A stretch of 64,000 nucleotides of DNA from positions 248,001 to 312,000 of the forward strand of contig OZ025737.1 of NCBI GenBank assembly GCA_964019335.1, in the 5' to 3' direction. The notes under the pieces were generated by a model. The model saw nothing but the letters and a program-made list of their open reading frames with translations, was not told the DNA's origin and made no database searches. The translations under genes were made by a program, and so were the position numbers. Within the stretch, counting starts at the first letter, position 1; each line of letters opens with the position of its first letter. The stretch is from Diplonema japonicum (Eukaryota > Protista > Euglenozoa: Diplonemea). Below are positions 54,246 through 60,298 of this stretch, piece by piece.

Positions 54246-55472
54246 AGGCTGAAAGAGAAAGGAAATAATTAGAACAGACAACTCGAAAAGAAAAGAGAAA
54301 ACATTAAAACCTTTTAAATTGTGTTCAAAAGAGAGTCAGAAAGAGTAGCTGAATCGTGAGGGGGGAGCAGCTGGACAAGGCCTGCTTTGGGGTCCAAAAG
54401 AAAAAGAAGAAGAATAAAGCAACGCAACTTGTCCTGCTGCTTCATATCCCCGCGGTTCTTTCCCCTTACTACTTTATGACTAGAAATCGACACAAGTACC
54501 TACGAGGGATGTGCCCCATTTGTCCCTTCCCTCCTTTATCCCCAGAATGTTTTTTTAATAGCCGATTCACACCTTTTTCTATCTGTAAAGCTACCCCACC
54601 TACATAACTTTCTTTTTTTTTTGATGAACTTTTTTTTTCTTCATTTTGCATTTTTCCTTTCAATAAAAAGTAAGAATCTTTAAATTTTCTTCTTCTTTTC
54701 AAAAAATAAGACGGATGACCGGACCCCTTTGGAAAAAGAGGGAAAAAAAAAAAAAAAAGGAAAAAAAGAACCTGATAAGATAACGATGTAAAACAAAAAC
54801 AAACAAAAAAAAAAAAGAAAACCTCTACTGCTTTAGCCCTCGCGAACGGGGGATGACATTTTTTTTTTCTTTCCTTTTTTTCTTTTTTTTTTCTTTTTGT
54901 AATTACAATCATATTTTATTTCTTTTTCGACTTTTTTTTTGTATCAAGAAGGGAGAGTAGCCCTTTTCTTTTTTCCCATAGAATGAAAAAAAGAAAAAAA
55001 AAAAAGAAAAAAAAAACAGAGAAATTGAAGCAACGAAGAAAAAAAAAATGTTTTAGAAAAAAAAAAAAAAAAAAAAAAGAAATCTCAATTTTTTCTGTTT
55101 TTACCCTCATTTTCCCCTTTTTGCTTCCCGACCCCCATTCATTCCTTTCATGTTGAAAAAAAAGATTTTTTTTTTCTATTTCTTGGAGTTGCATTTCCCC
55201 TTGCCAGTATGAAAGCCTCAACGAAGCAGCCTATCTTAATAACACTTTAATTCCTTAATCAGCTTCTCAAAGCGATGGGACACTGCGTTAGGAGAAGAGG
55301 GCATGTACGTTGGGGTGCAGAGGGAAAGGTATTCTCCGGGATGTCATTTTCTTTCCTTTTTTTTTTTCTTCTTCTTTTTTTTTCCTATGTTCCATTTTTT
55401 TATTATTATTTTATTTTCACTATTTTTTTGTTTCCCCCCCCCCCCGAAAAAAAATTCAAGGAGAAAAAAAAA

Positions 55473-56261
55473 ATGCCCCATCGACAAAACACAATACTGG
55501 TGCTTCTTTGCACTGTAGTACTACATTGCACTGCGAGTGATGCTTCATCATGTGACGAAGCTCAAAAACAACCGATGACCGCCGTTGTCATAGGCGGAAC
55601 AGGGGCCATCGGGAGGGAACTCGTCCGCGAATTAGTCCAAAGCACCTACTTCGAAAAGGTGAAGGTTCTCGTGAGAAAAAGCAGAGATGAAGGGTTCTAC
55701 GGCCTGACAGCAGACGAGGCAGCCGCCAAGATGGAACAACAAGTCGTAAACTTCGACGATCTGAAGGAAGAGGACTTCACAGGGTACGGGTACGGCTTCT
55801 CTGCCTTCGGAACGACAAGGAAAGACGCTGGGAGTGCAGAAGAGTTCAAAAGAATCGACTACGGGTACAACGTAAAGGCCGCAGAGCTCATGAAGAAAGG
55901 CGGTGTGAAGCACATGCAGCTCGTGTCGTCGCAGGGCAGCAACGCAAACAGCTGGCTTCTATACCCCAAAACGAAGGGCGAGATTGAAGATTTTCTCAAA
56001 GGCCTTTCCTTTGAGAAGCTTACCATCTGGAGGCCCGGGCTCCTCGCAGGCCGCCCGCAAGGCCGTTCCTTCGAAGGCCTCGCCAACACCCTCACACCGA
56101 ACTTCTTCCGCATCCACGTCCGTACCGTTGCGAGAGCCATGCTCTACGACACCACACAGCCGCAGAGCACAGCACCCACAGCAATCATCGAGAACAGCGG
56201 TATCAAGTCATATGTGGAAGAAGTAGGTGGGAAGGATGCTCTCTTCGATGAGTCGTACTAG
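55473..56261 (+). CDS. HTATIP2/TIP30 (CC3)-like NAD(P)-binding oxidoreductase with a predicted N-terminal signal/anchor
   Basis: GGTGAIG, FGTTRKDAGSAEEFKRIDY, SSQGSN, YPKTKGEIE, IWRPGLL. Confidence 0.9.
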   Translation: MPHRQNTILVLLCTVVLHCTASDASSCDEAQKQPMTAVVIGGTGAIGRELVRELVQSTYFEKVKVLVRKSRDEGFYGLTADEAAAKMEQQVVNFDDLKEEDFTGYGYGFSAFGTTRKDAGSAEEFKRIDYGYNVKAAELMKKGGVKHMQLVSSQGSNANSWLLYPKTKGEIEDFLKGLSFEKLTIWRPGLLAGRPQGRSFEGLANTLTPNFFRIHVRTVARAMLYDTTQPQSTAPTAIIENSGIKSYVEEVGGKDALFDESY

Positions 56262-56556
56262 GAAAGAACGGGATTAATAAAATTCTGCTTTTCTTTTGCA
56301 CTGTCCCACGTTTCACCCGCAACGCACAGCACCCAGCTGCCTATCATCTGCCAAAGATCGGAGGTGAAGCCTCTACCAGGGCAGTGTCTGAGGTCGCAAG
56401 TTAATGCTTCTAACTTCTTTTTTTTGGTCTAGCTTTTTTATTTTATTTTTTTAGCTATGTTCGTGTCGGAGAGAGGGGGGGGGGGGGGGGGGGGGGGCGT
56501 CACTTTCTTCATTCATCCCCATGTGGGAGAAATAGAATTGTTTCGAAATGTTCTCA

Positions 56557-56626
56557 GCTTCCAGTTCAAAAAGATTCTCAGCCCTGCTCATGCGGTCAAT
56601 CTTTACCTACACTGGAAGCGACACAT
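56557..56626 (+). ncRNA. Candidate single-hairpin H/ACA-like RNA (ACA-ending), target unresolved
   Basis: Perfect lower stem GCTTCCAG/CTGGAAGC, internal loop, upper stem AAGATT/AATCTT, then ACA. Confidence 0.5.
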
Positions 56627-56653
56627 TCGATTCGAGGAAAGACGTGAGAAGAC

Positions 56654-56727
56654 CTCACCAAGAGCTTCCCTGGTGCCCGTTATTTTGAACAAATCAAAAG
56701 GAGCACCCCTACGCAACTGGGAGATGA
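56654..56727 (+). ncRNA. AGA-box pseudouridylation guide snoRNA, predicted LSU rRNA target GUAGG-(Psi)A-AGGGAAG
   Basis: 5' pocket CTTCCCT, upper stem GGTGC/GCACC, 3' pocket CCTAC; AGA (56722-56724) 14 nt from the upper stem. Confidence 0.78.
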
Positions 56728-56756
56728 CAAATAAATAAATAAATAAAAAAAGAAAT

Positions 56757-56827
56757 CATCAGGTGGAAATTAGGCCCTCTTTCGGCCTGAAATGCCACAT
56801 GAGGGTGCATCACAGACACCGAGACAG
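56757..56827 (+). ncRNA. AGA-box snoRNA copy 1, predicted SSU rRNA target immediately 3' of GUCUGUGAUGC
   Basis: Stems GGTG/CACC and GCCCTC/GAGGGT; 3' pocket GCATCACAGAC antisense to conserved SSU GTCTGTGATGC; AGA 15 nt from the upper stem. Confidence 0.8.
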
Positions 56828-56830
56828 TGC

Positions 56831-56892
56831 GGGTTCATCAGTGGCCCAGGCAACCATGAGAGGTGCCGAGTATCGAGTCCGGACCTAGACCT
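56831..56892 (+). ncRNA. Candidate AGA-box snoRNA, target unresolved
   Basis: Lower stem GGGTTC/GGACCT directly followed by AGA; upper stem GGCA(A)CC/GGTGCC. Confidence 0.5.
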
Positions 56893-57063
56893 TCCTCGAA
56901 AAGGCTTCTGTGCTGAGAAAGGCAAATTCACCTGACAAGATGAGTGGGGAGGTGTTGACTTGTCACAAACTGTCCTGGTTGCAGTGCTGCAGTGCACTTG
57001 ACAACCCTTTAAACGGTTTGGGCGGACTGTGTTCGCCATTTTTATGTGGTGGGGTGCAACGGA

Positions 57064-57134
57064 CATCAGGTGGAAATTAGGCCCTCTTTCGGCCTAAAAT
57101 GCTACATGAGGGTGCATCACAGACACCGAGACAG
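57064..57134 (+). ncRNA. AGA-box snoRNA copy 2 (duplicate of 56757-56827)
   Basis: 77-bp direct repeat at offset 307; the two substitutions lie in the apical part, leaving pocket and box unchanged. Confidence 0.8.
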
Positions 57135-57156
57135 TGCGGGCAAAGGTAGAATGAAC

Positions 57157-57223
57157 ATCACATCGAATCCCCTGTGACAGCCATCTGGATCAAGTCATGG
57201 GTCCAGACAACCGTGAAAGAGGA
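57157..57223 (+). ncRNA. AGA-box snoRNA, predicted SSU rRNA target UUGUCUGG-(Psi)U-GAUUC
   Basis: 5' pocket GAATC, upper stem CCTGTGAC/GTCATGGG, 3' pocket CCAGACAA, lower stem TCAC/GTGA; AGA 15 nt from the pocket start. Confidence 0.8.
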
Positions 57224-57239
57224 AAGGCGGCGGCAACAC

Positions 57240-57305
57240 GGCACCCGAGTCAGCTTGCCCAGCCACTACTTGTAGGCGGCAAGTGTTAAGGTGGGGCCCA
57301 GACAC
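57240..57305 (+). ncRNA. AGA-box snoRNA, predicted SSU rRNA target within CUUAAUUUGACUC
   Basis: 5' pocket GAGTCA, upper stem GCTTGCC/GGCAAGT, 3' pocket GTTAAG; AGA (57300-57302) 15 nt from the upper stem. Confidence 0.82.
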
Positions 57306-57415
57306 CCGACTATATCTGCGGATTTGAGGGAAAAAAAAAGAAGAAACACAAAAGGATTACACAAGTGAGCTCCGGATGGTTACACATTGAAACTATAAGA
57401 CGACATAAATTTTTA

Positions 57416-57676
57416 ATGGGCGGTGTAAAGATTTCCCTTGGGGACTCAGGGGGCATCAAAGCCACCGACACCTCAAAACACAAAGTGAAGGGGAAGGCTG
57501 CTCCTCCTCCAGCGAAGATCGAGCAGGTGGACACAGAGCCGGCTTGCAACACGCTACAGTCAGAGGCAGAGTGTATTGGCGCAATGTACCCTAATGGGGG
57601 ACGGTACTGCGGTTGGAACAAGAGCTCCAAGACGTGCGCCAACAGCAGTATGGTGCCAGGGTGCTCAGTGCAGTGA
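57416..57676 (+). CDS. 86-aa Cys-containing protein ending in a CaaX motif (CSVQ)
   Basis: MGGVKISLG...CNTLQSEAEC...YCGWNKSSKTC...PGCSVQ*. Confidence 0.6.
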   Translation: MGGVKISLGDSGGIKATDTSKHKVKGKAAPPPAKIEQVDTEPACNTLQSEAECIGAMYPNGGRYCGWNKSSKTCANSSMVPGCSVQ

Positions 57677-57901
57677 ATTGACTTTTGTTGTTGCAAAAAC
57701 GGTTTTAACTTAAACTTCTTTTACTCACAAGTTGGTTTCACGACCAACACCACGACGAGAGGGTCGAACACAAGATGAGGTGGATGTCGTTAGGCGATCC
57801 TGTCACATACTGCAGGTTCCCTTAAAAGACACGTTTTTTTTTAATAGTATTCTACAACCTCCTTTTCAAAACCCAAAAAATAAAAAAGAAGGAGGTCGAA
57901 A

Positions 57902-60298
57902 ATGGTTGGTAAAAAAGGCGGGAAAGGGGGCAAAGGAAGTAAAGGAAGTAAAGGCGGAAAAGGGGGCAAGGGAGGAAAAGGCGGGAAAGGATGGAAAGGA
58001 GGAAAAGGCGGGTCTGTCCAAGATTCGAAAACAAGGAGGAAGCAAGAACAAGAACAGGATCTGAAAAGGGTGACGAAGGGTGTCGATGCATTGGATTTGG
58101 AGTTTAAAGCAGAGACGTTCGAAGACCTGCCCCTATCGAAGCTGACTAAGAGGGCATTGGAAGCCTTTGGGTTCACCGGCCCAACGCAAGTACAACAGCT
58201 CACAATCCCTGCCGCACTGAAGGGACGTGACGTTCTTGGAGCGGCAAAGACAGGCAGTGGGAAAACTCTCTCTTTCGTGATACCCGCTGTGGAACTGTTA
58301 TACAGGAACAAGTGGCTGCCGAGCGACGGGCTTGGCGTTGTGGTCCTGTCCCCTACCAGAGAGCTTGCTTCGCAGATCTTCGAAGTGGTGAAAATCGTTG
58401 GCAAGTTCCACACCGTGACAGGCGGTCTCATCACTGGTGGCAGCGACATGGAAGGCGAGGCGGGTATCGTCAACTTGAACCTTATCGTCTCTACACCTGG
58501 GAGGCTGCAGCACCACATCGACTCCACCATCGGCTTCGACCTCACCAACACCCGCATGCTCGTGATGGACGAGGCGGACAGGTTGCTCGACGAAGGGTTC
58601 AAAGAGAATGTCAACAATATTATTGATGCTCTCCCCAAGCCCATCCAGACACTCCTGTTCTCCGCTACCCAAACTAAGGACCTCGACGCACTCACCCGTG
58701 TCTCTGTCCACGACCCCTTCTACGTCTCCGTGCACTCCAACTCCAAGTTCGTCACCCCCAAGAAGCTCTGCCAGAACTTCGCTGTCGTCCCCCTCAGCGA
58801 CAAGCTCTCCACTGTCTACTCCTTCATCAAAAGGAATGTCAGGGAGAAGACCATCATTTTCTTTTCGACCTGCAACCAGGTCAAGTTCGTGTACCTCGCG
58901 TTGAGCAAGCTGCTGCGCAAGGACAACACCTGTGCCATGTGTCTGACAGGGAAGATGAAGCTGTCGCAGAGGAAAGAGGTGTACCAAGCGTTCTGCCAGA
59001 AGTCTAACGCGGTGCTGCTGTGTACAGATGTCGCGGCACGTGGTCTCGACTTCCCTGCAGTGAAGTGGGTGATCCAGGCAGACTGTCCTGAGGACGTGGA
59101 GACCTACATCCACAGAGTGGGCAGGACAGCACGTGCTGGCGCAAACGGTGCCTCACTACTGCTGCTGACGCCAAATGAGGAGAAGTTCCTACAGAAGCTC
59201 GCAGAAAAAAGGATCAGAGCTAGAGAGGTGGTAGTGAACCCCAAGTACCTGACGACAGTGACGCCCCTCCTTGTTGCCATCATCATACAAGACCCGGAGC
59301 TGAAGGCCAATGCGCAGAAGGCAGTAGTGTCGTATCTACGTGCTTTGTACTTCCAGAAGGACAAGGAGGTGTTCGATGTCCACGCAGTATGCCCCGTCGA
59401 GCTGTCCACAAGCATGGGGCTCTCAAAAGCACCCATGTTGAAGTTCATCGAGCAGGGATCGAAGGATTCGAAGAACATGTCGTGGGAGTTGAAGAACCTG
59501 CAGGACAACCGCAAATCATCAGGGCTGTCGAAGAAGGACAGGAAGAAGGTATCGATGCACGAGACCACGCTGCAGGAGGCGAGGGGGAGGCTGATGGCCG
59601 ACGACGACGATGATGACGATGACGATGACGATGACGTGATTGTGAAAATGGTGAGCGACATCACAAGTGTCACAGCCCCAGTCAAGGAGGAGGAGTCGCA
59701 TGTGAAGTTCGACAGTGACAGCGAGGAATGTGAAACACACGCACAGAAGGCGATGCGGGAGTTGAAGGAGAAGCAAGCAGAGGAGACGGCGAAGTACATC
59801 CGCAAAGACGTCGGTGTGTCGAGGGAAGACATAAGCAAGCACGCGTCGGAGCTGAAAGAGAAAGTGGAGGGTGTCAACAAGGTGTCGAAGGTGGAGGACA
59901 GGAAGCGTGTGCAAGATATCCACAAAATGAAAAAAGAGAAAATGAAACAGCTGAAGCACGGGAAGAAGAAGTATGAAACCTATGAGTTAAAAACACCAAC
60001 CACCCAGGAACGAAGAACAAGACATCCCGATGATGATGGAGACAGACGAGTCAGGGGACTCGGAGGATGAGGGAGACGAGGCAAGCGATGCCAGCGATGC
60101 CAGCTTTATGTACGATGACCGCAGTGAGGACTCCTTGGGCAACGTGTACGAGTCGTCGGGCACGGAGAGTGAAGACGAAACACCGCAACCACCGAAAAAA
60201 CGACAGAAAAAAACAATAGTATACCATTTACCCCCCTCCCCCCAATCAATCATTCACAGCACTCGCAAGAATCCGCCATTTTGAAGATGATTGGCTAG
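57902..60298 (+). CDS. DBP4: DEAD-box RNA helicase DBP4/DDX10 (~772 aa); introns 59971-60007 and 60219-60259
   Basis: GAAKTGSGKTL, LYRNKW...DGLG, PTRELA, TPGRL, DEAD, SAT, ARGLDFP, YIHRVGRTAR. Spliced C-terminus ...HSQESAILKMIG*. Confidence 0.92.

What the first reader, a model, noticed from the sequence alone, without database searches (positions are those of the whole stretch)
56557..57305. Unannotated cluster of single-hairpin AGA-box (H/ACA-like) guide RNAs with readable rRNA targets
Seen: an ordinary-composition island inside homopolymer-rich spacer DNA resolves into about 7 tandem ~70-nt hairpins. Five (four distinct sequences) have the lower stem/pocket/upper stem layout with AGA 14-15 nt from the pocket top. 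Their pockets are antisense to conserved rRNA: SSU GUCUGUGAUGC (x2), SSU UUGUCUGG-UU-GAUUC, SSU CUUAAUUUGACUC and LSU GUAGG-UA-AGGGAAG. Established: trypanosomatids and Euglena use single-hairpin AGA RNAs in clusters, and Psi lies 14-16 nt from the box. Inference: a co-transcribed pseudouridylation guide cluster embedded in the protein-coding run, ~600 bp upstream of the ribosome-biogenesis helicase DBP4. The rRNA sequences are from my memory of conserved regions, not from this organism.
Basis: partly seen in the sequence, partly recalled or inferred. Interest (0 to 1): 0.8.

Follow-up and report, generated by a model that had tools for sequence, protein, structure and literature searches.

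The report
Diplonemid single-hairpin pseudouridine guide cluster
A 750-base stretch between genes of a diplonemid (a marine relative of trypanosomes and Euglena) holds six short hairpins that match ribosomal RNA and likely guide its chemical modification, an RNA class already known from those relatives but apparently not yet described in diplonemids.

Summary
Confirmed and extended. The window is from a diplonemid (DBP4 tree). I fetched 60 diplonemid rDNA contigs with an independent probe. The pockets pair 10-14 Watson-Crick bases around a U; the summed pairing of five distinct guides is 60 against at most 44 for 100 shuffled rRNAs. Three of five predicted sites map to documented pseudouridines: Leishmania 1841/T. 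brucei 1907, T. brucei 1612, human 1367/Arabidopsis 1311. Pockets follow letters where diplonemid rRNA departs from the eukaryote consensus. A seventh hairpin (56556-56626) has an ACA box and no secure target. Not shown: expression, ends, Cbf5 binding, the modification itself, pairing to this species' own rRNA. The DBP4 link is unsupported: a small gene and a dispersed repeat lie between. Verdict: new members of the known trypanosomatid/Euglena H/ACA-like class, filling the diplonemid gap; I found no description of diplonemid modification-guide snoRNAs in my searches.

The parts
56556..56626 (+). U0: well-folded hairpin with internal loop, A before stem I, ACA box at 56621; target unresolved (best candidate: U in SSU helix 45 loop, position 2048 of the L042 SSU, non-canonical geometry)
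   Evidence: Fold z -3.76, 0 of 200 shuffles as good; best strict-geometry target only 7 bp; relaxed geometry 10 bp, reached by 12 of 200 shuffled rRNAs
56653..56727 (+). G1: predicted guide for LSU U1969 (L042 LSU numbering), AGA 56722; stem I weak (3-4 bp), 5' end uncertain (56653-56657)
   Evidence: 7+5 WC pairs plus 2 G-U in 10 of 10 LSU contigs; 0 of 100 decoy rRNAs reach 12; no T. brucei site listed in this part of LSUb; equivalence to the human ACA61 site is recalled, not tested
56761..56827 (+). G2: predicted guide for SSU U1695 (helix 34), AGA 56822
   Evidence: 4+10 WC pairs, target identical in 57 of 57 contigs; same context as L. major Psi1841 / T. brucei Psi1907, guide TB11Cs4H2
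56876..56943 (+).
   Evidence: 12-13 WC pairs in 49 of 52 anchored contigs; 16 nt 3' of the m1acp3Psi anchor, as T. brucei Psi1612, guide TB10Cs1'H1; guide fold is the MFE fold but no better than shuffles (z 0.41); 2 of 100 decoys reach its score
56944..57067 (+). 124-nt spacer with a long multibranched hairpin (56971-57065); no guide assigned
   Evidence: z -2.15, 6 of 200 shuffles; no AGA hit; only weak ACA-box candidates in the loose scan
57068..57134 (+). G4: second copy of G2, AGA 57129
   Evidence: 77-nt repeat, 97% identical, both differences in the apical part
57157..57223 (+). G5: predicted guide for SSU U1517 (helix 37), AGA 57218
   Evidence: 5+8 WC pairs in 51 of 53 anchored contigs; 119 nt 3' of the m1acp3Psi anchor with no indel against the Rfam consensus, as human U1367 and Arabidopsis U1311 (1248+119, 1192+119)
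57239..57305 (+). G6: predicted guide for SSU U1392 or U1393 (helix 31 region), AGA 57300
   Evidence: 11 pairs in 43 of 52 anchored contigs; 1-2 nt 5' of T. brucei Psi1592, so not a documented site; 8 of 100 decoys reach its score of 10; the unit alone recurs in contigs of runs X11 and X12
57416..57676 (+). Neighbour: likely small gene, 86 aa, ending CSVQ (CaaX-like; motif recalled)
   Evidence: 4 of 4 listed in-ORF differences in run X11 are synonymous; no homologue found
57902..60070 (+). Neighbour: DBP4/DDX10 DEAD-box helicase, used to place the organism

Best explanation
The stretch holds six single hairpins with an AGA box whose pockets pair with diplonemid rRNA, and they likely act as H/ACA-like snoRNAs that are cut from a polycistronic transcript and guide Cbf5 to convert five rRNA uridines to pseudouridine. 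Shown: layout, box spacing, pairing to rRNA of other diplonemids, excess over chance. Inferred from trypanosomatids: RNA polymerase II read-through with the flanking + strand genes, trimming to about 67-75 nt ending 3 nt after AGA, binding of one Cbf5/Nop10/Nhp2/Gar1 set per hairpin, and modification of the U held 14-15 nt from the box (SSU 1392/1393, 1414, 1517, 1695; LSU 1969; numbering of locus L042).
For: Layout and 14-15-nt spacing in 6 of 6 match the trypanosomatid consensus (PMC2613932 passages). Strict scan 5 hits vs mean 0.076 in 500 shuffles. Decoy-rRNA test: sum 60 vs mean 36.5, max 44 of 100; per guide 0, 0, 2, 0 and 8 of 100 decoys reach the score. Three of five sites are documented pseudouridines elsewhere; two of four SSU sites on a 23-site T. 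brucei list has a rough chance of 0.011 among 516 U. Pockets follow letters where diplonemid rRNA differs from the Rfam consensus: the G2 target U is C in the consensus, G5 pairs GAUUC (consensus AAUUC), G3 pairs CUAGG (consensus CCAGG); G2 has UUAG for diplonemid CUAA where TB11Cs4H2 has UUGAG for CUCAA. In other runs, 9 listed substitutions and 3 indels in the cluster fall in spacers (7), loops (4) or keep a pair as G-U (1), none in a pocket or box (40 of 68 substitution rows were shown), and guide-sized pieces recur inside contigs that otherwise do not match (table 8).
Against: Stem I is only 3-4 bp in G1, G2, G4 and G5, shorter than the 5-8 bp trypanosomatid consensus. The guide fold is not the lowest-energy fold for G2, G4 (0.9-1.4 kcal/mol above) and G5 (4.4 above), and no AGA hairpin alone folds much better than shuffles (z -1.8 to +0.4). 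G6 is the weakest by the decoy test and lands 1-2 nt off a known site. Rfam finds no snoRNA family of this kind even at E 10. The rRNA used is from other diplonemids, not this species.
Confidence: 0.9

Rival explanations
1. The units are guide-derived but this particular cluster is a set of scattered, partly decayed copies that are not matured into working RNAs.
For: Guide-sized pieces occur in other contexts; stem I is short in 4 of 6 and the guide fold is not always the MFE.
Against: All six keep box, spacing and full pocket pairing; listed differences avoid pockets and boxes while five substitutions and two indels crowd one 22-nt spacer.
Confidence: 0.05
2. The hairpins are expressed small RNAs that pair with pre-rRNA but act as folding or processing aids, or are Cbf5-independent 'AGA-like' RNAs, not modification guides.
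For: PMC2613932 describes AGA-like RNAs of the same shape that are not destabilised by CBF5 knock-down; U0 has no canonical target.
Against: Each AGA unit brackets a U at the canonical distance, and three of the five U are documented pseudouridines in other eukaryotes.
Confidence: 0.03
3. Chance: structured UTR or intergenic sequence that a permissive model reads as guides.
For: The loose model has a high background in this window, and such models give millions of raw candidates in trypanosome genomes.
Against: Strict scan, region shuffles and decoy-rRNA test; regular tandem 67-75-nt units on one strand; match to known sites.
Confidence: 0.02

Closest known systems
Trypanosomatid H/ACA-like (single-hairpin, AGA-box) snoRNAs, e.g. 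TB11Cs4H2 / LM27Cs1H3 (SSU Psi1907 / Psi1841) and TB10Cs1'H1 (SSU Psi1612)
   Same: One hairpin, AGA box, 57-91-nt size range, A or C before stem I, pocket 14-15 nt from the box, clustered genes; G2/G4 and G3 point at the same rRNA positions, and G2 shares the 3' pocket letters GCAUCA with TB11Cs4H2.
   Different: Stem I shorter in four of six; no C/D snoRNA found in this cluster whereas trypanosomatid clusters mix both; no Rfam match outside the pockets; G1, G5 and G6 point at positions absent from the T. brucei list.
Euglena gracilis single-hairpin pseudouridine-guide RNAs
   Same: Single-hairpin form (one sentence in PMC2613932); AGA box and clustered genes are recalled, from no call.
   Different: Target lists could not be compared: the Euglena snoRNA paper was not held and the ribosome paper's supplement could not be read. 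Euglena LSU rRNA is fragmented, that of D. papillatum is not.
Canonical two-hairpin box H/ACA snoRNAs (human guide of 18S U1367; ACA61)
   Same: Same pocket geometry; G5 points at the position of human U1367 and Arabidopsis U1311.
   Different: No hinge with an ANANNA H box linking two hairpins was assigned here; units are separated by 15-124-nt spacers and recur singly in other contexts.

Membership tests
H/ACA-like single-hairpin AGA snoRNA (Euglenozoa) | Single hairpin: stem I, pocket, stem II, apical loop; 57-91 nt | tested here: met
   6 of 6 units can form it, 67-75 nt; it is not the MFE fold for G2, G4, G5
H/ACA-like single-hairpin AGA snoRNA (Euglenozoa) | AGA box just after stem I, 14-16 nt from the target U | tested here: met
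   14, 15, 14, 15, 15 and 14/15 nt for G1-G6; U0 has ACA instead and is not filed here
H/ACA-like single-hairpin AGA snoRNA (Euglenozoa) | Two-sided pocket pairing around an unpaired U-N in rRNA | tested here: met
   10-14 WC pairs with diplonemid rRNA of other species, above decoys; this species' own rRNA was not obtained
H/ACA-like single-hairpin AGA snoRNA (Euglenozoa) | Stem I of 5-8 bp with A (or C) just before it (trypanosomatid consensus) | tested here: inconclusive
   A or C present in 6 of 6; stem I 5-7 bp in G3 and G6, only 3-4 bp in G1, G2, G4, G5
H/ACA-like single-hairpin AGA snoRNA (Euglenozoa) | Discrete small RNA ending 3 nt after the box | not testable with these tools
   Only assembled contigs were available; they cannot show ends or strand
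H/ACA-like single-hairpin AGA snoRNA (Euglenozoa) | Cbf5 dependence and pseudouridine at the target | not testable with these tools
   Needs pull-down, knock-down and modification mapping; Cbf5 in this genome was not looked for (no genome held)
H/ACA-like single-hairpin AGA snoRNA (Euglenozoa) | Sequence match to a curated Rfam TB/LM family | tested here: not met
   No such family at E<=10; this bears on orthology by sequence, not on the class
Canonical two-hairpin box H/ACA snoRNA | Hairpin-hinge(H box)-hairpin-ACA tail | tested here: inconclusive
   Each hairpin has its own AGA and recurs alone in other contigs, which favours single hairpins; AGANNA-type H-like readings at some boxes (for example AGAUGA after G1 and G3) were not excluded, and mature RNA ends would decide
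Box C/D snoRNA | C box, D box and >=10-nt antisense element next to D or D' | tested here: not met
   No RUGAUGA-type C box in 56262-57900; none of 6 antisense matches of >=10 nt is followed by CUGA

The most novel reading that the evidence does not exclude
Diplonemids, which keep an unfragmented LSU rRNA, use the same minimal single-hairpin AGA guides as their fragmented-rRNA relatives but with a 3-4-bp lower stem and a mixed repertoire (sites shared with trypanosomes, sites shared with animals and plants, one shifted site), and the ACA-box hairpin U0 is a non-standard guide or chaperone for the helix 45 loop at the SSU 3' end.
Probability: 0.12. Interest if true: 0.6.

Novelty: new member of a known kind. 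Interest (0 to 1): 0.4.

Why it matters
Single-hairpin AGA guides are known from kinetoplastids and Euglena; diplonemids are the remaining large euglenozoan group and have an unfragmented LSU rRNA. If these RNAs work as predicted, the architecture is likely common to Euglenozoa and not tied to rRNA fragmentation, and the units give seeds for a diplonemid snoRNA search that Rfam misses. A full diplonemid guide catalogue would test whether heavy rRNA modification goes with fragmentation, as proposed for Euglena and trypanosomatids. The result is expected by parsimony, so a specialist would find it useful more than surprising.

Tried and rejected
No genome is held for this window, so no genome-wide guide search, no own rRNA and no Cbf5 check; pairing to the species' own rRNA stays open. 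Rfam: no family at gathering score in the window, only chance-level matches at E<=10. Sequencing runs: no RNA holder listed; I laid 4 of the 14 runs on 55400-58200, all contigs, so no ends or strand; the bin 56528-56621 (most of U0) had no cover in any of the 4, which proves nothing. The diplonemid probe found nothing in viral contigs; 23 of the 83 metagenome loci were not rRNA and were dropped. My first idea that G5 matches the yeast snR83 site was rejected: that site is 99 nt from the anchor (chicken table), G5's is 119. G5 is also not T. brucei Psi1710, which lies 5 nt 5' of it. G6 aimed at the T. brucei Psi1592 position would need non-canonical geometry and was not adopted. C/D snoRNAs in the cluster: none found. 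Two script slips: the G1 5' pocket constraint was one base off, so its constrained energy is not used; the G1 offset was one base off and was redone. The DBP4 tree is the quick IQ-TREE run on 23 rows (22 of the 120 listed hits), not the finished careful search. No homologue of the 86-aa ORF. Earlier findings of the scan: nothing. Supplement searches in PMC4855143 gave nothing. Cross-species covariation of the guides was not tested: no other diplonemid cluster was in reach.

Full report
Organism and setting. No genome is held for the window. The DBP4 protein (57902-60070) has its best hits at 49-62% identity in a group that includes a record labelled Hpha (the same prefix names the diplonemid Hemistasia in the tables of PMC10161547). 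In a quick tree of 23 rows it sits in a six-row clade with that record (support 99), sister to kinetoplastid rows. I read the organism as a diplonemid; the species is not known to me. The cluster lies between an NAD(P)-binding gene (ends 56261) and DBP4. Of 17 + strand ORFs between 9244 and 60070 that I scanned, 12 have Pfam matches; I scanned only two - strand ORFs, both before 7.1 kb. D. papillatum genes lie in one-directional arrays thought to be co-transcribed (PMC10161547 passages), so read-through transcription of the cluster is a reasonable inference, not a result.

Getting real rRNA. I scanned metagenome contigs with a published diplonemid probe that lies outside all targets: 83 loci, of which 60 are rDNA by their flanks. 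L042 holds a full SSU, 5.8S and LSU and gives the numbering used here. These are other diplonemids; this species' own rRNA was not obtained. The target segments are nearly invariant: G1 10 of 10 LSU contigs, G2/G4 57 of 57, G3 49 of 52, G5 51 of 53, G6 43 of 52 in full and 5 in part (the remaining rows are variants or wrong anchor hits).

Anatomy. A scanner built on the trypanosomatid consensus (PMC2613932 passages) found six AGA hairpins on the + strand: G1 56653-56727 to LSU U1969; G2 56761-56827 and its 97% copy G4 57068-57134 to SSU U1695; G3 56876-56943 to SSU U1414; G5 57157-57223 to SSU U1517; G6 57239-57305 to SSU U1392 or U1393. Spacers are 15-124 nt. U0 (56556-56626) folds best of all (z -3.76) but has an ACA box; its best canonical target is 7 bp, and a 10-bp match around a U in SSU helix 45 needs relaxed geometry and is reached by 12 of 200 shuffled rRNAs, so it is only a lead. 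No C/D snoRNA was found.

Is it more than chance? Loose scoring with G-U pairs gives 5 non-overlapping hits against a mean of 0.43 and a maximum of 2 in 150 shuffles of the region, but it also gives 95 hits at that score over both strands of the window and one other 800-nt bin with 5. Strict Watson-Crick scoring gives 5 hits against a mean of 0.076 and a maximum of 1 in 500 shuffles; the whole window has 12 hits, 5 in the cluster, and 4 of the 5 with 12 or more pairs (G3 misses this filter because its contiguous upper stem is 4 bp; G2 and G4 count twice; thresholds were set after the loose run). Holding the five distinct hairpins fixed and shuffling the rRNA instead gives a summed pairing of 60 against a mean of 36.5 and a maximum of 44 in 100 decoys; per guide 0 (G1), 0 (G2), 2 (G3), 0 (G5) and 8 (G6) decoys reach the real score.

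Independent support 1: known sites. L. major SSU Psi1841 was mapped by mass spectrometry in the fragment that follows GAUG, the context of the G2/G4 target, and equals T. brucei Psi1907, guided by TB11Cs4H2 (supplement rows of PMC11156624). Counting from the hypermodified U of helix 31 (T. brucei 1596, which I take as the m1acp3Psi; that identity is inferred from its guide-table row and lack of signal), G3's U is at +16, as T. brucei Psi1612, and the pockets of its guide TB10Cs1'H1 bracket the same U. G5's U is at +119 with no indel against the Rfam consensus, as human U1367 and Arabidopsis U1311 relative to U1248 and U1192 (PMC8351944 passages). G1's site is not on the T. brucei list; that it equals the human ACA61 site is recalled and untested. 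G6's site is 1-2 nt 5' of T. brucei Psi1592 and is undocumented in what I read. So 3 of 5 are documented.

Independent support 2: lineage letters. In the Rfam eukaryote consensus the G2 target is C, G5's partner reads AAUUC and G3's reads CCAGG; diplonemid rRNA has U, GAUUC and CUAGG, and the pockets pair with those forms. G2's 5' pocket is UUAG for diplonemid CUAA, where TB11Cs4H2 has UUGAG for trypanosomatid CUCAA.

Independent support 3: variation. I laid 4 of 14 listed runs on the region. Among the 40 substitution rows shown (28 were not), nine fall in the cluster: five in the 22-nt G4-G5 spacer, three in apical loops, and one turns a C-G pair of G2's stem II into U-G; of three indels two are in that spacer and one in an internal loop of G3. 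None touches a pocket or box, but cover is partial. Contigs of 188-241 nt match only 57237-57306 (X11, X12), 56652-56721 (X13) or 56874-56944 (X5), the spans of G6, G1 and G3, which suggests further copies of single guides in other contexts; some of these limits may be contig ends.

Against. Stem I is 3-4 bp in G1, G2, G4 and G5, below the 5-8 bp trypanosomatid range. The guide fold is 0.9-1.4 kcal/mol above the MFE for G2 and G4 and 4.4 above for G5, and the AGA hairpins are not clearly more stable than shuffles. Rfam finds no relative. Nothing here shows expression, ends, Cbf5 binding or modification.

The DBP4 link. Between G6 and DBP4 lie an 86-codon ORF (57416-57676) whose four listed differences in run X11 are all synonymous and a repeat found in many contigs with unlike flanks (57767-57842). 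I see no evidence that the nearness of DBP4 means anything.

What is known. The class is established in trypanosomatids and reported for Euglena. For diplonemids, a search for 'diplonem' with 'snoRNA' gave 18 papers, 17 listed, none on diplonemid snoRNAs by title (I opened passages of two); a second search listed 20 of 810 papers, two holding all four terms, neither opened. The D. papillatum genome paper has no 'snoRNA' in its main text or in 7 readable supplements, but its Additional file 1, which has a section on structural RNAs, could not be read, and subscription papers are not searched. Papers seen: passages only of PMC2613932, 10.1101/2020.05.14.095992, PMC11613528, PMC12772313, PMC7672448, PMC6366073, PMC2653536, PMC8351944, PMC7991803; passages and supplement searches of PMC10161547; one whole supplement table and a partial supplement search of PMC10662448; supplement rows of PMC11156624; an empty supplement search of PMC4855143; search listing only of PMC7970053; title only of the 2018 Euglena snoRNA paper.

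Verdict. A real cluster of six predicted H/ACA-like pseudouridylation guides (five distinct) and one unresolved ACA hairpin; confidence 0.9; new members of a known kind; interest 0.4.

Noticed in passing
window 57767-57842: A roughly 75-nt element just upstream of the DBP4 start is matched by many contigs with unlike flanks in all 4 runs laid (summed depth 43,365 in X5 against 5-60 nearby, which is no copy number); left ends vary (57767, 57774, 57785, 57790), several after pyrimidine tracts, and the right end is a T run. One copy in the window, no Rfam match. It holds 10 nt complementary to SSU helix 45 at 57810-57819. Likely a dispersed repeat or a shared 5' UTR / splice-acceptor element.
   Followed up: partly
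window 57416-57676 (+): 86-aa ORF beginning MG and ending CSVQ, cysteine-rich in its second half; 4 of 4 listed differences synonymous; no homologue. Likely a small lineage-specific, possibly lipid-anchored protein.
   Followed up: partly
window 56965-57066: Long multibranched hairpin in the 124-nt spacer between G3 and G4 (z -2.15); could be a processing aid or another small RNA with a target outside the rRNA tested.
   Followed up: partly
window 56556-56626: U0 hairpin with ACA box and a possible 10-bp match around a U in the SSU helix 45 loop; 12 of 200 decoys reach it. SL RNA and snRNA targets were not tested.
   Followed up: partly
window 9244-60070: A long + strand run of ORFs read without introns, with homopolymer-rich spacers; denser than the D. 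papillatum arrays described in PMC10161547.
   Followed up: no
L042:744-6746, and L053, L030, L061, L058: Long diplonemid rDNA contigs of several clades in public metagenomes; L042 has a full SSU, 5.8S and a continuous LSU match.
   Followed up: partly
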